DNA of 63,697 nt, filler included, from Fonticula-like sp. SCN 57-25 (Eukaryota): NCBI GenBank assembly GCA_001724245.1. It is 5 parts of 5 records of this genome, joined end to end, with 100 filler letters (N's around TTAATTAATTAA, not from the genome) between each part and the next. Parts side by side here need not be neighbours in the genome. Positions count along the whole stretch, not along the records: positions 9,406 to 26,680 come from MEDX01000687.1; 4 more parts are not named here. One strand, written 5' to 3'. Shown here in pieces: positions 18,921 through 26,231 of the stretch. Position 1 is the first letter of the stretch, and the number at the start of each line of letters is the position of its first letter. Both the position numbers and the translations under genes were made by a program. A model generated the notes under the pieces. That model saw nothing but the letters and a program-made list of their open reading frames with translations, was not told the DNA's origin and made no database searches.

Positions 18921-20679
18921 ATGGCGGCGGCCGACGTAGTCAGGGTACTACACGTTGATCTAGGTAGCAATACCGTCGAGGTGTTGTTGAAGGACAACAA
19001 GCGCGTTTCCCGCTCATTCGAAGATGTTGTCAAGGCATCGTGGAGGCATATTGAATTATTTCAGGTGTTTGAGCACATGAGAAAGACTCGCCGGCAGGCC
19101 TTTGGGGACGCTCCGCTCGTTTCGGCGGACAAGTTGGCGTTTCGATACGAGTCGCACATGCACAACGTCCTTGAGGAGCATGGCCGTGCGTTCTTATATT
19201 CATTCCTGCCTATGATTAATGGGCTCTTAGACGCTATATTTGCTTGGGAGTTGGCGGAGCGTTTCGCGACACCTCGCGTGTACATTGGTCCCGAAGTGAT
19301 GACGCAGATGCTTCAGCGGACATTCATGCAGTGCGACCTGCTGTCAGACGACGATGTATACCAAGCATTTACTGTTTTGCGGCGTCTCCAGCAGGTGCAA
19401 CACGGTTGCAAAACGAATCATTTTGTTCCCGCCGTACGCCATCGTCAGCATGCCCGCATTTGCTGATCCTTGCGTTAGGTAAAGGCGCTCTTTGAAAAGC
19501 AGGGGTGGTGCACTCTGGCCGAGATCCTCGAAGCGTCACTGGTTGACATTACGCTGAACCCGTCGCCTCGCAAGAACGTGGATGAGCGGACGACAATGTC
19601 CATGCGGCCGTCGGTGCCGCGCAGCCGCCGCCAGCTCGCCAAGCGGCTCCTTCTCCGCTTCCTCGTGAGCCTTTTCGAAGACGACATGTGCGACAACTCA
19701 TGTGCGCACATCCGCTTCTCTCTTGCCGGTGAGCGGATGCCTGACGCACTATCGCCATAGCACGGCTGAGTGAATCGCTTTTGGCGAGCATCCTCGTATC
19801 GCGGGGCGACGATATGACGGCCATCTCGGACCTCGTTCCCCGACTTTTGCAGAGCATGGTTCTGGAGAACGAGACGCACTACGTGGAAGCGGCAGGCCAG
19901 TTGCTATGTCTTGTACGGACGTTGCTGCAATGTGTCCGTGCTGCTAACTGCGTCCTTTGCAGATGTGGCACCTTCAGTGCGCCAGCGCCATCAGCGCATC
20001 GCGGTCGCTATCAGAAACAATACACAACAATTTCCGCATCTTTAAATGGGAAAACCCGCAGCGAATTTGCGTTATTTCCGTGCGTTTTATCGTTTGCCTT
20101 TATGCACTTCTCACAGTATTCCTCCAGTCGTTTTCGTCGCCGTCGCTCCGCTTTGCCGTTGCCGAGCGCTGCATCCGCTTTGACGCCGTGCAGCCGCCCG
20201 GCCGCCCGACGGCATCGCCCCTGCCCTCGCTTGACAACTTTGTTCGCTACTACCTGCTCACCACGCCGTCCTCAAAATCATTTTCCGCCGCCGTCGACCA
20301 CATTGAGCTCGTCAATGTCGCGCTAGAGGCGTACGTCAACACGCGCGTGCTACTCCCGCTGCCGGACCCGCGCGACCGCGAGCTGCTCGACCAGCTTGGG
20401 AGCGCCGTGACGCGGGCGTCGGAGGACGCGGCCAAGGCGGCGGCCGACCGAGGTAGCCAGTCCGACAAGGACCGCCTGGCAGTTATCGTCGAGTCGATTA
20501 TTAAGTTTACGCGCGAGTTCATACGGGGGTCCCCGCAGGTGCAGCGTGTCGGCAAGAGCCACCATCGCGCTGCTGAGCCTGCGCCCAAGCGGGCGGCCGC
20601 CCCGAGCACCAGCAGCAGCGCGCCGAAAAAGGCAAGGGCGTCGGCGAACCCAATGGAGGTGATTAACCTCGACGACTGA
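18921..20679 (+). CDS. Helical protein resembling the SIMC1/SLF1 Nse5-like domain, with a terminal SUMO-interacting motif
   Basis: AFTVLRRLQQ...LLLRFLVSLFEDD recalls SIMC1 (from memory); ends MEVINLDD*. Confidence 0.45.
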
Positions 20680-20809
20680 CTGTTTTGCTTTGTCAATGTA
20701 CATTAGACTGTATACCAGTACAATAAAATATCCGTGTATTAATGGGTGAAATGCTAATAATTACAGGCCTAAAGTGTCATATAAATGCGAATGACGCCGG
20801 CTACAGCGG

Positions 20810-23474
20810 CTACTTTACCGGCGCGACGCGAAAGTACTTTGAAAGCGCGGGCAAGAAGTCCTTCTTGCGCGAAACTTTGTTTCCGACGTCGTAAAGGTGC
20901 TGCTCGACGACCTTTGTCTTGAACGCGCCGACGATGACGGTCTCCTCCGCGTCGGAAAGGCCGACAATGTACGACTTCATGTGGTGCACGTCGACAATGA
21001 TGAAGAACATGAGGTCCAGCTTGTGCTCTTCCTTGACGCCAAACGACGCCTGCCGCAGCTCGTCCTTTCTCTTGATGAGCAAGTCGGGCTTGAGCGTCTC
21101 CGCGACTCCGATGCCGATCCGCTGGTCGCCGAGCGCAAACTCTTTAAAGTCGGTCAGGACGACGGTGCGCGCCGGCAGCCCATTCGTGTCCGACTTGGCC
21201 TCAAACATGCCCATGACAAGCTCCTCCACGTCAGCAATCTCCGCAGCCTTCACCAGGTACTCTACAGCAACGCGGTCCGCTTCCGTCGTCGTCGGCCCGC
21301 GAAGATTGCTGAACCAATTCGTGAGATGCAGAAAGCAATGCACGAGGCAAGCTACAAACACAGGTGCAACAATACAGCAACTAATACACACGCCACGCAC
21401 TACACAAACATATGCATATGTTTTACACCACAATCACGTACACAGTGTCTGAGAGGATTCCACCGAGTAGACAGCCCGCGACGTGTTTCGGGATCGCGCG
21501 CGATGCCTGAAAGTACTTGTACGTCAGTATAGTGCATGTTGACCCCACCGGCTGAATGTCGACCATCCTTGGCTCCTCGACCTCGACTGCGTTTGACATG
21601 AGCTGATGGTGGTCGATGACGCACAGCAGCTGGTTGACGTCGACGCCCTCTGGCACCTTGTCCTGCTGATTAAAGTCGAGCAGGCACCAGTGCTTGCCCT
21701 TGAGGCTCGGGTCCGTGCTGAAAAGCGGCGGCTCCAGCTCAAACCGCGACAGCAGGTACGCCGTCTCGGGGTTCACCGCGTCCGCCATGGCCGCCACGCC
21801 GTTCCACAGGTCAGCAGCCGCAATTGCGCTGCACACCGAGTCTGCGTCGTTCTTCAAGTGGCCAACAAATACAGCGTTCTCAAATGACGGCAGCGGCACG
21901 ACGGGGAATGGCACGCCCGCCGCGCCCTTGCCATCTCCGCCGGACGCTGCGGACGACGCGTCCGGCGACCCCGACACGCCCAGGGACCGCCTCCAGTGCG
22001 GCGACGATATTAAAAAGAGGAGCGTAAGCGTGCACCCGACCATGAGCGCAATGTGGCGCATGTGGCGCGCCGACAGCGTGCTCGTCAGCGAGCCGACAAG
22101 CGCGCGGACGTTGATCGACTTTAGCTGCGTCCCGGCACCCTTGGACGCGTACGCGGAGGCGATGCGCGCCGAAGACGCAGACGCCTCAAGCGCCGGCGAC
22201 GGGCGCGGCTGCGCACCGCTGCTGCCTGACGGCGGCGACAGCACGCTCTGCAGCTCGGCCTCACCGGTGGCACCTAGTGTCTGAAAGAGCGCATCGCGTC
22301 AGCATCGACATGGCAGTGGGGCGCGGGCGAAAAGGCGCACCCTAAACATAAACGAATCAGAGCGCGTGAGCTCGTGCTGCGGCTGCGGCTTTTGTGTCTG
22401 CGGCCGAAAGTGGACCTGCACGAACTGGTCCAGGATGTTGTCCACGCGGTAGTTTGCCGGGTCGAGCGCGTCAAACTTCTTCTCGCAAACAGGGCAGCTA
22501 GAGCTCTTGCGCGGGCCGCACACGTCCGACAGGCACTGGCGGCAAAACTTGTGCGTGCACGACAGGACAACGGGGTCTTGGAGAATATTTTTACTGCGGA
22601 TGACGTCAGCGGATGCGCGCGGCAACGGAGGCAACGTACCAAATGGGGCAGGTAAAGTCCTGCGCAGATGGCGCTACTTTGTTTGTGTGCCAAATGAGCT
22701 GGGCGCACAGGCATTGTACTTCGGTAAATAATGTCGCGAGTATCGTCGAGGTATAAAAGGGCTGCTGCGCGAGGACGGCCTGGAAGGTCCGCTTGTAGTC
22801 CGCTTCCGTCTTCTTGTCGTACTTTTTGCAGATCTTTACAACACCAATGTAATTAAGCACAGTAAAGTTTCGAAGGTCGTCGAGCTGCTGGCAAAAGTCA
22901 AAGAACGGCCGCAGCTCGGATAGCTCCGTCGAAAGTCGCTCGGGGTGCGCGAGCTGATTCGAATAAAAGGGCCACGTCAGCGATGGAATGCTGCCTCAAA
23001 AGATCGTACCAGGTCTGTTACCAGCGGCTCAAACGTGCGCGAAAACGTAATCTTAAACTCGTTCTCTTTTAGCAAGTAAAAGCTGTTGATCTTTTCCACG
23101 TCCGCCATCAGTTCCCTGGAACGACCACCGGGTGAGCGTTCCCTGATGAGCGGTCGGCAAAGAGACATACCGTTCAAACCGCGCGCGCTCATCCTCAACG
23201 GTGCCAATAGGGGGATCATACGACGCTAACAAGGCCTTGGCTTCCTGCGAAGACGCGCCGAGGAGCGCAATCTTTTGAGCACTGACCACCCTTTTGATAA
23301 CGCCTACGTGACAAGGGAAATCCGTCAGGCATTGCTCAACGAAACAAGGGGAAAGGGTAAAGAGAAAAGACATATACAATAAAACAGTGTCATACCTTTC
23401 AAGCTCTTGTATGCCAAGTAGTGTTGCGTCCACTCTGGGACGCACTGGTCCAGCAGGCGCTTGCCAAACTTCAT
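20810..23474 (-). CDS. Predicted SPX-RING(C3HC4)-TM-family II (DHH/DHHA2) pyrophosphatase fusion, multi-exon
   Basis: MKFGK..W..HYLAYKSLK and LNYIGVVKICKKYDK (SPX); CPIC..LSCTHKFC..C..CPVC (RING); IALMVGCTLTLLFLI (TM); GHLKNDADS, IDHH, GSTCTI, ILSDT, DFKEF, VSRKKDFLP (PpaC); 60-nt intron 22340-22281 joins the two halves in frame. Confidence 0.8.
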
Positions 23475-23753
23475 GGCTGGCGGGCGCCCGCGCTACGCAC
23501 GCTTCGAGTATTGCCTTTTATGGGAATTGGTGACACATACCACCGCCTATATATTCCCTCTTATGGTAATTCGTGACACACCATATTATTTTGCCAAGGA
23601 GCGGCCAAGGAGTTCGCTGCGGCTCACCCACACCGCCCCAGCAGTGCGCCCCGGGTGACCGTTTCGACGCGCAGGTGCCGAGCATAGCGCCCGTGCAGTG
23701 TGCTTCTGCGTTGAATTTGATTTTTTGTTCTCAGGGCAAGGAGTACTATCATA

Positions 23754-24542
23754 ATGCGGGGTGCCCTATTGGGAATCGCCGTGGTACTGCTGGTGGCCAC
23801 GAGCGGCAACTTTGCCGCCGCCCAGCGCCCGCCGGTCCAGCCCGGAAGCGCGGGCATCAAGGCGGGGGAGGGAACGTTGGAGGATCTGCGAGAGTCGAAC
23901 CCTCAGGTGGCGACATTAGCGGGAAAGGCGCAGGTGCGCTACCGCTATTCCTTTGAACGAACCGGCACTCACACCGTGCCCGCAACGTAGGCCATCTTTT
24001 CGATGCTCCAGACGATCAGGGTCGTGTCTCCAAAGCACAAGCTCACAGGAGTGTTTACCGGAATTGACGCCATTGAGGTTCGCCTTTTCTCTTCATTTGA
24101 TTGTTTCCCACCTGTTTCTTGCTTGGCATCTGCTTACCCCGCTCTCTCGCTCAATAGGCGGACGCACCCGCGAAGGCAGAGGTGATTTTCATTTCGTACG
24201 CGGAGCCTACGAGCAAGACGAAAGAGCATCTCCGCGTGTTGGCATCGTTTGGCCAGAATCCCACCATTCACCGGTACGTGCACTTGCCGGGAAAGGCCGC
24301 GTCGACTCACTCTTTGTCACAGGGTCTGGTCGTCCGACGATCAAGGGGTTAAGCAAAAGGAGATTATCCTCGCCGGCGCCAAGACGGCAGCAGCCCCTTT
24401 CCTCACAAAGGCAAAGGTTCTTACCTTTTTCCACTACTTTGGATACGTGGCCATCTTTGGCGGGTTTGTTTTAATCCTTGTCGGCCTGCTTATAAAGTAC
24501 AACGAAGGGCCTGTGGTGCAGCCCGCAAAGAAGAGCTCGTAA
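23754..24542 (+). CDS. Hypothetical type I membrane protein, spliced
   Basis: Signal peptide MRGALLGIAVVLLVA; C-terminal TM YVAIFGGFVLILVGLLI; ends AKKSS (KKxx). Confidence 0.65.
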
Positions 24543-24809: not shown

Positions 24810-26231
24810 TCAGTCTAATGCCTCGCTGGCCTTTCCGTCCTGGCGCTGCCCATCTGATCCTGCCTCCGCCTCCTCCGCCTCCTTTTCCTCGCGTCTGCGC
24901 TTTTTCCTGCTCTTCTGCAGCTCACGCTTCTCGTCAAACTTTGACTCTAGCACGTGCTATGCGCGACGTGTCAGCCCCCAAACTTCGCGGCTGCTTCGTG
25001 CGTACCATGACCGCCGCCTTGTGTGCCGCCGAGACCTGGTTGAGCATCTTGAGCACCTGGTCCTCCTCGATGGGCAGCTCCGTCAACTGCTTTCCAATCT
25101 TTTCCTCGACAGCGTGGACGAGCGAAATGTCACGCTCGGTGACGATCGTGACGGCCTGACCGCCGCGCCCCGCGCGCGCCGTACGGCCGACGCGGTGAAC
25201 ATAGTCCCTCGGTGCGGACGGGACGTCAAAGTTGAGCACGACCTCCACCTGCGGGATGTCGAGGCCGCGGCTGCCCACGTCGGTGGCAATGAGCGTCTTG
25301 ATGTAGCCGGAGCGGAAGCGCGAAAGGGAAGCAATGCGGTCGCTTTGCGTCATGCCAGAGTGCAGCGCGGTGACTTGAATGTCGAGCTCGCGCAGCATCA
25401 GGTAGAGAATTTCGGCGGTGCGGCAACGGCCGACAAAGACAACTGCCGACTTGCCCTGAAACAGCGTTTGCAGCAGGTATACAAGATACACTTCCTTGAC
25501 CTTTTGCGGGATAAAGACGTACTGCTGCAGCAGCTTGTCGACCGTGTCATACTTTGTTGACGCGTGGAACACAAAGGGATCGTTCATTGAGAGGGCCTGC
25601 AGCTTCTCAAGGTTGCGCGACATCGTGGCGCTAAAGAGAAGCGTCTGGCGCTGCTTGGGCATCGCACCGAGAACGGTCGCGAGGTCGTCCGCAAACGTCG
25701 GCTCGAGCATGCGATCAGCCTCGTCGAGGACAAGGAACTTTACGCGCTTGAGGTACACGGCGTCCGAGCAGCTCACAAGCGCGTCGGCGAGGCGGCCGGG
25801 CGTTGCAACGATAATGTGAGGGCGGGAGGAAAGCTCCTGCATCTGCACCATCATGTCGACGCCGCCAACCACCACAGACACACGAAGCTTGATACTGCGA
25901 CCGTACACCTTGAACTGATCGGCGATCTGGTATGCCAACTCGCTAATTTGATCGGTCAGTGAAACGTGAAAAGAATAGCCGGAAAGGCGCCCCGCGTCGG
26001 CGTCAGGATGACCGCGTAGACGCCATACGGATCCTCAGAGAACTTTTGGAGGATCGGGAGCGCGAATGCAGCAGTTTTGCCGCTACCCGTCTGCGCGCTG
26101 CCAATAATGTCGCGGCCCTTCAAAATGGGAGTGATGCAGTTTGCTTGAATGTCGGTAGGCTCGCGAATATTCACGCCTCCAAGGGCCTGAAGTAGCCAGG
26201 GCGACAGGCCGAGCTCCTTGAACGACGGCAT
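24810..26231 (-). CDS. DBP8: DEAD-box RNA helicase DBP8/DDX49
   Basis: [47 protein letters not shown]. Confidence 0.92.

What the first reader, a model, noticed from the sequence alone, without database searches (positions are those of the whole stretch)
20810..23474. Predicted SPX-RING-TM-family II pyrophosphatase: phosphate sensor, E3 ligase and phosphatase in one protein
Seen: the RING exon ends TTT AGG|GTGCGC (22340). A 60-nt intron with a GCTGAC branch site and TTTCAG acceptor (22281) continues in frame (TLGATGEAELQSVLSPP) into a single TM helix and a complete DHH/DHHA2 PpaC-like domain. The PPase ORF has no obvious independent promoter space. Known: SPX domains bind inositol pyrophosphates, SPX-RING is the plant NLA architecture, and family II Mn-dependent PPases are mostly prokaryotic. 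Inference: cytosolic SPX-RING is coupled across a membrane to a lumenal or extracellular PPi/polyP hydrolase, giving a phosphate-homeostasis device. I do not know this architecture from any characterised protein.
Basis: partly seen in the sequence, partly recalled or inferred. Interest (0 to 1): 0.88.

Follow-up and report, generated by a model that had tools for sequence, protein, structure and literature searches.

The report
SPX-RING ligase fused to membrane pyrophosphatase
A single seven-exon gene of an unidentified microbial eukaryote joins a phosphate-sensing SPX domain and a RING ubiquitin-ligase domain, through one membrane helix, to a bacterial-type (family II) pyrophosphatase; the same rare, unstudied design occurs in a few distant protists.

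Summary
On the minus strand, 23474-20810 reads as one 7-exon, 740-aa ORF. All six introns are GT..AG, and the 60-nt one at 22340-22281 is as described. Exon pieces hit SPX, C3HC4 RING, DHH and DHHA2.

No RNA data exist for this organism, so the fusion rests on comparison:
- Full-length colinear orthologues occur in transcriptomes of Lentomonas (43% identity, one HSP) and Stygamoeba.
- A Fonticula alba protein has the same order.
- In a metagenome locus (L001), RING, linker, membrane helix and DHH lie in one uninterrupted exon.
- The linker has coding-type GC3 of 0.84.

The pyrophosphatase keeps the metal ligands and the SRKK motif. The SPX keeps its lysine cluster. The RING has all eight zinc ligands. 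Nearest pyrophosphatase-only relatives are eukaryotic, and several carry N-terminal signal anchors or a signal-peptide-like start. This fits a cytosolic SPX-RING and an exoplasmic enzyme.

Function and topology are inferred, not shown. Seven literature searches found no paper on this architecture. Verdict: real fused gene, a new variant of known kinds, moderately high interest.

The parts
23396..23474 (-). Exon 1: ATG and SPX N-terminal helix (MKFGK...; Y22, K26 present)
   Evidence: Pfam SPX 2.7e-9, profile positions 1-26
23304..23395 (-). Intron 1, 92 nt, GTATGA..CTGAC..GTAG
   Evidence: the alignment to P0005 is continuous across the junction
23171..23303 (-). Exon 2 (SPX, variable loop)
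23116..23170 (-). Intron 2, 55 nt
23010..23115 (-). Exon 3 (SPX helix)
22954..23009 (-). Intron 3, 56 nt
22640..22953 (-). Exon 4: second half of SPX with the lysine cluster K-I-C-K-K-Y-D-K-K, and the first C-x-x-C of the RING. It ends inside the second Cys codon.
   Evidence: Pfam SPX 1.4e-8; rice SPX1/SPX2 structures 9.3e-11 and 5.7e-10
22594..22639 (-). Intron 4, 46 nt, phase 2 in the RING Cys codon. Locus L001 has an intron at the same position and phase.
22341..22593 (-). Exon 5: remainder of the C3HC4 RING (all 8 zinc ligands, model residues 208-247) and a short tail
   Evidence: Pfam zf-C3HC4; pattern match
22281..22340 (-). Intron 5, 60 nt, GTGCGC..GCTGAC..TTTCAG, with one in-frame TGA. 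This is the junction in question.
   Evidence: No RNA evidence; supported through orthologues.
22053..22280 (-). Exon 6, first part: low-complexity linker (model residues 296-371). GC3 is 0.84. No stop in this frame; 3 and 2 stops in the other two frames.
   Evidence: the corresponding stretch of P0005 is modelled as disordered (pLDDT below 50)
22002..22052 (-). Predicted membrane helix (model residues 372-388, 17 residues, Kyte-Doolittle mean 2.22)
   Evidence: same position in 5 of 5 orthologues; helix 340-383 in the P0005 model
21456..21872 (-). DHH domain with the H, D, D / D / DHH / D metal-binding motifs
   Evidence: Pfam DHH 3.7e-13; alignment to B. subtilis pyrophosphatase 1K23
21442..22280 (-). 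Exon 6 as a whole (linker, membrane helix, spacer, DHH). A prokaryote-style gene call of this ORF is in the protein collection as P0263.
21309..21441 (-). Intron 6, 133 nt, inside the conserved ...SDTVNLR... motif
   Evidence: the junction restores the SDTVNLR(G/S)PTTT stretch shared with P0005
20810..21308 (-). Exon 7: DHHA2 domain with the AKS and SRKK substrate-binding motifs, then the TAG stop
   Evidence: Pfam DHHA2 1e-21; alignment to pyrophosphatase 6LL7

Best explanation
Positions 23474-20810 (minus strand) are one gene for a 740-aa single-pass membrane protein. Its N-terminal half is an inositol-pyrophosphate/phosphate-sensing SPX domain followed by a C3HC4 RING E3-ligase domain, and it faces the cytosol. 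A disordered linker and one membrane helix follow. The C-terminal half is a catalytically competent family II (Mn/Co-type, DHH-DHHA2) inorganic pyrophosphatase that faces the exoplasmic side, either the lumen of a secretory or vacuolar/acidocalcisome-like compartment or the cell surface.

Proposed working (inferred): the enzyme frees Pi from PPi, and perhaps from short polyphosphates, outside the cytosol. The SPX domain reports cellular P status to the RING. As in the soluble SPX-RING ligases NLA and Pqr1, which ubiquitinate phosphate transporters, the RING then ubiquitinates the protein itself or neighbouring membrane proteins and so sets how much of the hydrolase stays in the membrane.

Shown here: gene structure, domain content, conservation of the fusion and of key residues.
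Inferred: splice junction to the base, topology, substrate, and any regulation.
For: Gene model:
- 2223-nt ORF with no internal stop and six GT..AG introns.

Fusion conserved:
- The model aligns to P0005 in one HSP, 43% identity over 746 columns.
- P0005 and P0125 are transcript ORFs with SPX, RING, DHH and DHHA2 in that order.
- P0126 and P0348 are single ORFs running from RING through the helix into DHH.
- L001 shows SPX exons upstream of P0348 and an intron at the same RING Cys codon as in the window.
- Linker GC3 is 0.84, against 0.28-0.60 at the third position of the introns.

Enzyme:
- All 11 PDB sequence hits of the DHH exon and all 10 of the DHHA2 exon are Mn-dependent pyrophosphatases.
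- H-x3-D-x-D, D, DHH and SD align to 1K23. SRKK aligns to the SRKKQ motif. Arg295 and Lys296 of that motif bind substrate (PMC11210485, passages).
- NCBIfam PRK05427 is matched end to end in P0005 (positions 4-307 of 308).

SPX and RING:
- Lysine cluster aligned to rice SPX1/2 structures.
- Eight zinc ligands present.

Topology:
- A hydrophobic helix lies 24-55 residues before DHH in 6 of 6 fusion proteins.
- The AF2 model of P0005 has a confident SPX bundle, RING and pyrophosphatase, separated by a disordered 285-337 stretch and a long helix 340-383.
- In the tree, the 4 fusion rows sit in a 7-row clade (SH-aLRT 98). The other 3 rows have an N-terminal anchor (P0253, P0274) or a signal-peptide-like start (P0292).
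- Stand-alone anchored relatives follow the positive-inside rule (K+R N-side/C-side of 3/0, 4/0 and 4/1 for P0244, P0252 and P0264).

Precedent for SPX-RING ligases acting on phosphate transporters: Pqr1 (PMC8294586, abstract) and NLA (PMC13153306, passages).
Against: - No RNA run was listed for this sequence, so splicing of intron 5 is unobserved here.
- The intron 5 donor GTGCG differs from the other five donors (GTATG/GTACG).
- 26 alternative in-frame GT..AG pairs exist in the stretch.
- The first in-frame ATG of exon 6 (M369) lies just before the helix, so a stand-alone anchored pyrophosphatase from an internal start cannot be excluded.
- The window's hydrophobic stretch is short. Its 19-residue Kyte-Doolittle mean is 1.74, below the 1.9 threshold I used, so the scan scored it 'none'. 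Only the 15-17-residue windows reach 2.2-2.6.
- Flank charges of the fusion proteins do not decide orientation: K+R N/C of 2/2, 2/2, 1/0, 2/2, 3/1 and 2/3.
- The pyrophosphatase part has no N-glycosylation sequon.
- NCBIfam scores of the orthologues (265 and 252 bits) are below the curated cut-off of 283.
- The window has Phe where relatives have His after the third Asp (LLDFNQ against DHNQ).
- The Fonticula orthologue has degenerate catalytic motifs and no Pfam DHH hit, so catalysis is not kept everywhere.
- Nothing tested links SPX or RING to the enzyme's fate.
Confidence: 0.6

Rival explanations
1. It is a fused gene, but the RING works in trans only, on phosphate transporters or other membrane proteins as NLA and Pqr1 do. 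The helix plus pyrophosphatase serves as a membrane anchor and an independent, constitutive exoplasmic enzyme, and the enzyme's abundance is not under SPX control.
For: Known SPX-RING ligases act on separate transporter substrates (PMC8294586 abstract; PMC13153306 passages). SPX-RING also occurs fused to unrelated modules: a kinase in P0192, NIF plus Put_Phosphatase in P0242, and DUF2608 in P0238. This suggests a general-purpose N-terminal cassette. The Fonticula orthologue keeps SPX-RING and the helix while its catalytic motifs have decayed.
Against: The pyrophosphatase catalytic residues are kept in the window, P0005, P0125, P0126 and L001. This indicates selection on the enzyme within the fusion. 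Nothing here separates cis from trans action.
Confidence: 0.22
2. It is a fused gene, but the hydrophobic stretch does not cross the membrane (monotopic, hairpin or dimerisation helix). All domains are then cytosolic, and the DHH enzyme removes cytosolic PPi, polyP, or even inositol pyrophosphates next to their SPX sensor.
For: The window's hydrophobic stretch is short (17 residues; 19-residue mean 1.74) and its flank charges are balanced. Other eukaryotic relatives are C-terminally anchored (14 of 157 scanned; P0128-P0130), which would leave the enzyme in the cytosol. Family II pyrophosphatases are described as cytoplasmic enzymes (PMC11210485, passages).
Against: The orthologues' helices are 19 or more residues long with means of 2.15-2.91. 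The closest pyrophosphatase-only rows carry N-terminal anchors or a signal-peptide-like start. The P0005 model gives one long straight helix (340-383), not a hairpin.
Confidence: 0.1
3. These are two adjacent genes: a soluble NLA/Pqr1-like SPX-RING gene ending at the TGA in 'intron 5', and a separate gene for an N-terminally anchored pyrophosphatase starting at M369.
For: There is an in-frame TGA 13 codons after the RING exon. M369 sits directly before the helix, like the N-terminal anchors of P0244, P0245 and P0252. 279 nt lie between the two, similar to the 279-nt divergent promoter region upstream. No RNA data are available. Both isoforms could also coexist with the fused one through intron retention or an internal start.
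Against: - GC3 is 0.84, with an open frame only in the fused phase across the 73 codons upstream of M369.
- Intron 5 matches the gene's other introns in length, branch and acceptor.
- Fused transcripts exist in two species.
- L001 has a single exon spanning RING to DHH.
- The pyrophosphatase domains of the fusions cluster together.
Confidence: 0.05

Closest known systems
Arabidopsis NLA and fission-yeast Pqr1 (SPX-RING E3 ubiquitin ligases)
   Same: An N-terminal SPX domain is followed by a C3HC4 RING. The lysine cluster and all eight zinc ligands are present. These ligases control phosphate transporters by ubiquitination (PMC8294586 abstract; PMC13153306 passages).
   Different: The section listing of PMC8294586 has GFP-Pqr1 localised to the cytoplasm. 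NLA and Pqr1 end after the RING. The window protein continues for about 445 residues with a linker, a membrane helix and a complete pyrophosphatase.
Bacterial family II inorganic pyrophosphatase (PpaC; B. subtilis 1K23, NCBIfam PRK05427)
   Same: Both have the DHH plus DHHA2 two-domain enzyme. The metal-ligand motifs and the SRKK motif are conserved. P0005 matches the profile end to end.
   Different: The bacterial enzymes are about 310 aa, cytoplasmic and stand-alone (PMC11210485, passages). Here the enzyme is the C-terminal half of a membrane protein. It belongs to a mostly eukaryotic clade and scores below the equivalog cut-off. It has no CBS/DRTGG insert.
Uncharacterised orthologues: Fonticula alba H696_02803 (P0127), Stygamoeba regulata MMETSP0447 ORF (P0125), Lentomonas sp. 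LEN2 ORF (P0005)
   Same: They share the domain order SPX, RING, linker, helix, DHH(-DHHA2). Identity to the window model is 87-106 residues over the 193-198 aligned SPX positions and 47-85 of 145 over DHH.
   Different: The Fonticula protein has a linker about 400 residues longer, degenerate catalytic motifs, and ends before DHHA2. None of the three has a described function.
Yeast vacuolar/acidocalcisome phosphate buffering (VTC, lumenal polyphosphatases, SPX-bearing Pho91)
   Same: The logic is the same: cytosolic SPX domains govern hydrolysis and export of phosphate stored on the far side of a membrane (PMC12668673, search listing and start of abstract only; the component names are recalled).
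   Different: In yeast the sensor and the lumenal hydrolases are separate proteins from unrelated hydrolase families. Here they would be one polypeptide. This is a functional analogy only and was not tested.

Membership tests
Family II inorganic pyrophosphatase (DHH-DHHA2, PpaC type) | DHH domain followed by DHHA2 domain | tested here: met
   Pfam DHH 3.7e-13 and DHHA2 1e-21 on exons 6 and 7
Family II inorganic pyrophosphatase (DHH-DHHA2, PpaC type) | Metal-binding and catalytic residues (B. subtilis H9, D13, D15, D75, H97, H98, D149; the residue list is recalled, the positions were read from the alignment) | tested here: met
   Alignment of exon 6 to 1K23: GH-x3-D-x-D, LLD, DHH and SD are all identical
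Family II inorganic pyrophosphatase (DHH-DHHA2, PpaC type) | C-terminal SRKKQ signature (Arg295 and Lys296 bind substrate; PMC11210485 passages) | tested here: met
   SRKKD aligned to SRKKQ of 6LL7. The motif is kept in P0005 and P0125 and in L001.
Family II inorganic pyrophosphatase (DHH-DHHA2, PpaC type) | Score above the curated cut-off of the NCBIfam equivalog PRK05427 (283 bits) | tested here: inconclusive
   The orthologues score 265.4 and 251.7 bits, end to end but below the cut-off. The window could only be scored as two exon pieces (117.7 and 118.1 bits).
Family II inorganic pyrophosphatase (DHH-DHHA2, PpaC type) | Mn2+/Co2+-dependent hydrolysis of PPi | not testable with these tools
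   Needs an enzyme assay
CBS-domain family II pyrophosphatase | CBS pair (with or without DRTGG) inserted in the DHH domain | tested here: not met
   No CBS or DRTGG hit in the window pieces or in P0005/P0125. By contrast, 119 of the 120 listed long relatives carry them.
PPX1 / h-prune type DHH exopolyphosphatase | Closest sequence relatives are exopolyphosphatases | tested here: not met
   All PDB hits at E up to 0.01 are inorganic pyrophosphatases (11 of 11; 10 of 10). No PPX1 or prune chain is listed.
SPX domain | Pfam SPX match covering the N-terminal helix and the C-terminal helices | tested here: met
   Profile positions 1-26 (exon 1) and 296-336 (exon 4). Rice SPX1/2, Vtc4 and XPR1 structures are hit.
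SPX domain | Basic ligand-binding surface (Tyr22, Lys26 and the helix-4 lysine cluster; numbering recalled from the Vtc4 literature) | tested here: met
   Y22 and K26 are in the model's N-terminus, and K-x2-KK-x-DKK starts at residue 146. The cluster aligns to KILKKYDKRT of rice SPX1.
SPX domain | Binding of InsP6 or inositol pyrophosphates | not testable with these tools
   Needs a binding assay
SPX-RING E3 ligases (NLA/Pqr1 type) | SPX directly followed by a complete C3HC4 RING | tested here: met
   The RING pattern with 8 ligands lies at residues 208-247, straight after the SPX domain
SPX-RING E3 ligases (NLA/Pqr1 type) | Two-domain soluble protein that ends after the RING | tested here: not met
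   A further 445 residues follow, with a membrane helix and DHH-DHHA2
SPX-RING E3 ligases (NLA/Pqr1 type) | E2-dependent ubiquitin-ligase activity | not testable with these tools
   Needs an in vitro ubiquitination assay

The most novel reading that the evidence does not exclude
The protein is a self-contained phosphate-status switch for phosphate scavenging or mobilisation. Inositol pyrophosphate binding to the cytosolic SPX domain gates the adjacent RING. The RING ubiquitinates its own cytosolic linker or tail and sends the whole protein, with its exoplasmic pyrophosphatase, to degradation when the cell is P-replete. The enzyme is stable at the surface or in an acidocalcisome-like lumen when P is scarce. 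In this reading an E3 ligase is fused to its own cargo, and the design dates back to early Amorphea (apusomonads, Amoebozoa and the Fonticula lineage all have it).
Probability: 0.3. Interest if true: 0.8.

Novelty: new variant of a known kind. Interest (0 to 1): 0.62.

Why it matters
How SPX-RING ligases (NLA, Pqr1) choose targets and read inositol pyrophosphates is still being worked out. A natural protein that ties this sensor-ligase cassette covalently to a phosphate-releasing enzyme on the other side of a membrane would be a compact model for that coupling. It would also be a hint that exoplasmic PPi or polyP hydrolysis is under SPX control in some protists.

The finding also draws attention to a largely undescribed eukaryotic clade of membrane-anchored family II pyrophosphatases, a family usually treated as cytoplasmic and prokaryotic.

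The scattered occurrence (apusomonad, amoebozoan, Fonticula and three unnamed environmental eukaryotes) suggests either an old Amorphea gene lost many times or repeated spread.

Tried and rejected
- RNA evidence: the look-up of sequencing runs listed no RNA holder for 20700-23600.
- Whole genome: none is held for this window.
- Organism: the neighbouring DDX49-type helicase exon gives its own ORF at 100% and one unnamed 81% relative. The best named hits are chytrid and other early-diverging fungi at only 51-57%. The organism stays unassigned (an unsampled lineage, possibly near Holomycota/Obazoa).
- Positive-inside rule on the six fusion proteins: undecided.
- N-glycosylation sequons in the pyrophosphatase part: none found, which is uninformative.
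- CBS-type pyrophosphatase: rejected, no CBS or DRTGG.
- PPX1/prune-type exopolyphosphatase: not supported by sequence.
- Stop-codon read-through of the TGA instead of splicing: considered. It would add 20 residues and needs no intron, but the stretch has all the intron signals of this gene and its position-wise GC (0.75/0.60/0.60) lacks the coding pattern.
- Literature: seven searches combined SPX with DHH/DHHA2, RING, pyrophosphatase, family II plus eukaryotes plus transmembrane, SPX-RING plus domain architecture, Fonticula, and protists. None returned a paper describing an SPX-RING-DHH protein. Supplementary tables, for example of SPX surveys or of the transcriptome papers behind P0005 and P0125, were not seen and could list it.
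- Not run because they would not change the verdict: complex prediction, fold search, the protein-atlas search.
Full report
**1. What is in the sequence**

Read on the minus strand, 23474-20810 holds an ATG followed by MKFGK..., the usual start of an SPX domain. Seven exons can be joined through six GT..AG introns into a 2223-nt ORF of 740 codons with no internal stop:
- 23474-23396
- 23303-23171
- 23115-23010
- 22953-22640
- 22593-22341
- 22280-21442
- 21308-20810

The unspliced exon pieces already identify the domains: SPX (exon 1, 2.7e-9; exon 4, 1.4e-8), C3HC4 RING (exon 5; 27.4 bits against a cut-off of 21), DHH (exon 6, 3.7e-13) and DHHA2 (exon 7, 1e-21).

**2. Is the 60-nt intron real?**

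The intron length is a multiple of three and it contains a single in-frame TGA. Without splicing the protein would therefore end 13 codons after the RING exon.

- Points for the intron: its length (60 nt, against 46-133 for the others), its branch motif CTGAC 18 nt from the 3' end (12-23 nt in the others) and its acceptor all match the five other introns. Those five are each confirmed by a continuous alignment to an orthologue.
- Points against: the donor GTGCG differs from the GTATG/GTACG of the others. In addition, 26 different GT..AG pairs in this stretch would keep the frame open, so an open splice alone proves little.

No RNA run was listed for this sequence, and no genome is held. The case therefore rests on coding signal and comparison.

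**3. Coding signal**

The 73 codons between the acceptor and the first in-frame ATG of exon 6 (M369) have GC3 of 0.84. The whole CDS has 0.77, and the third position of the introns has 0.28-0.60. This stretch has no stop in the fused frame and 3 and 2 stops in the other frames. That is the behaviour of translated sequence, not of a promoter or 5' UTR.

This stretch plus the intron is 279 nt, as long as the 279-nt region between this gene's ATG and the divergent ORF starting near 23754.

**4. Comparative evidence for the fusion**

- A search among longer proteins with exon 6 found one protein out of 120 listed that carries SPX, RING, DHH and DHHA2 together. This is P0005 (705 aa). The other 119 are CBS/DRTGG-type bacterial and archaeal pyrophosphatases.
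- P0005 is a transcriptome ORF of the apusomonad Lentomonas sp. LEN2. The window model aligns to it in one HSP, 318 of 746 columns identical.
- Searching with P0005 added three more: P0125, a Stygamoeba regulata transcript ORF (705 aa, same four domains); P0127, Fonticula alba H696_02803 (1024 aa); and P0126, a 424-aa fragment.
- A scan of 1.84 billion representatives gave 4565 hits at E up to 0.001. Among the best 150, only P0005, P0125, P0126, P0127 and the fragment P0348 join the two halves.
- P0263 in that list is the window's own exon 6 as called by a prokaryote-style gene finder.
- P0126 and P0348 are single ORFs that run from the RING through the linker and helix into DHH.
- P0348 lies in three metagenome loci. 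In L001, SPX exons beginning MKFGKRLLDQCVPEW lie upstream on the same strand, and the RING-to-DHH stretch is one 384-codon open frame. The DHH and DHHA2 exons follow.
- L001 has an intron in the second RING Cys codon (tg|gt...ag|t), at exactly the position and phase of the window's intron 4. It has none where the window has intron 5.

So the fusion is seen as mRNA in two species and as uninterrupted DNA in a third. I put the fused gene at about 0.93 and the exact junction at about 0.8.

**5. State of the modules**

*Pyrophosphatase*
- All PDB sequence hits of both halves are Mn-dependent inorganic pyrophosphatases (11 of 11; 10 of 10).
- The alignment to B. subtilis 1K23 shows the His and two Asp of motif I, the Asp of LLD, the DHH motif and the Asp of SD.
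- SRKKD aligns with the SRKKQ signature, whose Arg295 and Lys296 bind substrate (PMC11210485, passages).
- NCBIfam PRK05427 is matched end to end in P0005 and P0125, but at 265 and 252 bits against a cut-off of 283.
- One oddity: the window has Phe where relatives have His in D-H-N.

*SPX*
- Y22 and K26 are present, and K-x2-KK-x-DKK starts at residue 146.
- The best structural relatives by sequence are rice SPX1 and SPX2 (9.3e-11 and 5.7e-10).

*RING*
- The full C-x2-C...C-x-H-x2-C-x2-C...C-x2-C pattern lies at residues 208-247.

*Model*
- An AlphaFold2 model of P0005, built from a 42-row alignment, has mean pLDDT 85.3.
- It shows a confident SPX bundle, RING and pyrophosphatase, a disordered stretch at 285-337 and a long helix at 340-383.

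**6. Membrane helix and orientation**

A hydrophobic stretch lies 24-55 residues before the DHH motif in all six fusion proteins.
- In the window it is short: 17 residues with a mean of 2.22. The 19-residue mean is 1.74, below my 1.9 threshold, so the scan scored it 'none'.
- In the orthologues the mean is 2.15-2.91.
- Flank charges in the fusions do not decide the orientation.

The argument for a cytosolic N-terminus and an exoplasmic enzyme is indirect.
- SPX and RING act with cytosolic partners (established knowledge).
- Of 157 proteins scanned, 26 have a helix before DHH and 14 have one at the C-terminus.
- In a quick maximum-likelihood tree the 4 fusion rows fall in a 7-row clade (SH-aLRT 98). 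The tree has 92 rows: the window model, P0005, P0125 and P0126, plus those of P0244-P0329 and P0128-P0131, P0133 and P0134 that had the motif and at least 220 residues. P0263, P0291, P0127 and P0348 were left out.
- The other 3 rows of that clade have an N-terminal anchor (P0253, P0274) or a signal-peptide-like start (P0292).
- That clade sits in a 59-row clade (SH-aLRT 95) that includes the rows named as eukaryotic: Chromosphaera, Jenningsia and MMETSP transcripts.
- Branching inside the 7-row clade is unresolved, so a single origin of the fusion is not shown.

**7. How it probably works**

*Shown:* one gene; the domain order SPX, RING, linker, helix, DHH-DHHA2; conservation of the functional residues.

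*Inferred:*
- The enzyme hydrolyses PPi, and possibly short polyphosphates, on the exoplasmic side. That could be the cell surface or a Golgi, vacuole or acidocalcisome-like lumen.
- The SPX domain reads cytosolic inositol pyrophosphate, that is, P status.
- The RING ubiquitinates the protein itself or its neighbours, setting the amount of hydrolase.

The precedents are Pqr1, which restricts phosphate uptake by ubiquitinating plasma-membrane transporters (PMC8294586, abstract), and NLA (PMC13153306, passages). Which direction the switch works, and whether it acts in cis or in trans, is open.

The Fonticula orthologue keeps SPX-RING and the helix but has decayed catalytic motifs. The enzyme activity is therefore not indispensable everywhere.

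**8. Comparison with what is known, and novelty**

The protein works like NLA or Pqr1 at its N-terminus and like PpaC at its C-terminus, but it is a member of neither as defined. It fails the 'soluble two-domain' feature of SPX-RING ligases. It also lies below the equivalog cut-off for bacterial PpaC.

[quoted passage not shown] The review of microbial pyrophosphatases mentions family II enzymes in microbial eukaryotes, but no membrane-anchored or SPX-linked form appears in the passages I saw (PMC11210485).

Seven full-text searches found no description of the architecture. Supplements were not seen. The architecture does exist in databases as unnamed or 'hypothetical' entries.

Verdict: a real feature and a new variant of known kinds. 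Interest 0.62.

Noticed in passing
P0127 (Fonticula alba H696_02803), seen: The Fonticula orthologue keeps SPX, RING and the membrane helix, but its pyrophosphatase motifs are degenerate (GR for GH, DHR for DHH, EQT for SDT). There is no Pfam DHH hit, the linker is about 400 residues longer, and the protein ends before DHHA2. It is either a pseudo-enzyme or an incomplete gene model.
   Followed up: partly
P0242, P0192, P0238, P0236: The SPX-RING cassette also occurs fused to other modules in unnamed eukaryotic proteins: NIF phosphatase plus Put_Phosphatase/HAD (P0242, 1000 aa), a protein kinase (P0192), DUF2608 (P0238) and a Meth_synt_2 fragment (P0236). SPX-RING looks like a portable N-terminal regulatory unit. 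Some of these may be gene-model artefacts.
   Followed up: partly
P0128-P0130, P0255, P0260, P0261, P0271: A second group of eukaryotic (MMETSP) family II pyrophosphatase relatives carries a C-terminal hydrophobic tail, like tail-anchored proteins. This would leave the enzyme on the cytosolic face. 14 of the 157 scanned proteins show it.
   Followed up: partly
L001 4970-5035 against window 22594-22639: The intron that splits the second Cys codon of the RING (phase 2) is at the same position in the window and in metagenome locus L001. The window's introns 5 and 6 are absent there, and L001 has its own intron after LLDHNQL.
   Followed up: yes
window 23754-23990 (+): A divergently oriented ORF starts about 279 nt upstream of the gene. 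It has a hydrophobic, signal-peptide-like N-terminus (MRGALLGIAVVLLVATSG...). It was not identified.
   Followed up: no
window 24934-26034 (-): This exon belongs to a DDX49/Dbp8-type DEAD-box helicase. The best named relatives are chytrids and other early-diverging fungi at only 51-57% identity, and one unnamed relative is 81% identical. The window's organism is an unsampled eukaryote. Its ORFs appear in the protein collection only as prokaryote-style calls (P0263, P0392).
   Followed up: partly
window model residues 515 and 565 (exon 6): Two cysteines, one two residues before DHH and one in AGCLL, are conserved in the fusion proteins but are Glu and Leu in the B. subtilis enzyme. Whether they could form an exoplasmic disulfide was not examined.
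   Followed up: no
window 19948-20679 (+): A convergent ORF ends about 130 nt from this gene's stop codon. Intergenic spacers here are very short (130-280 nt), which indicates a compact genome.
   Followed up: no
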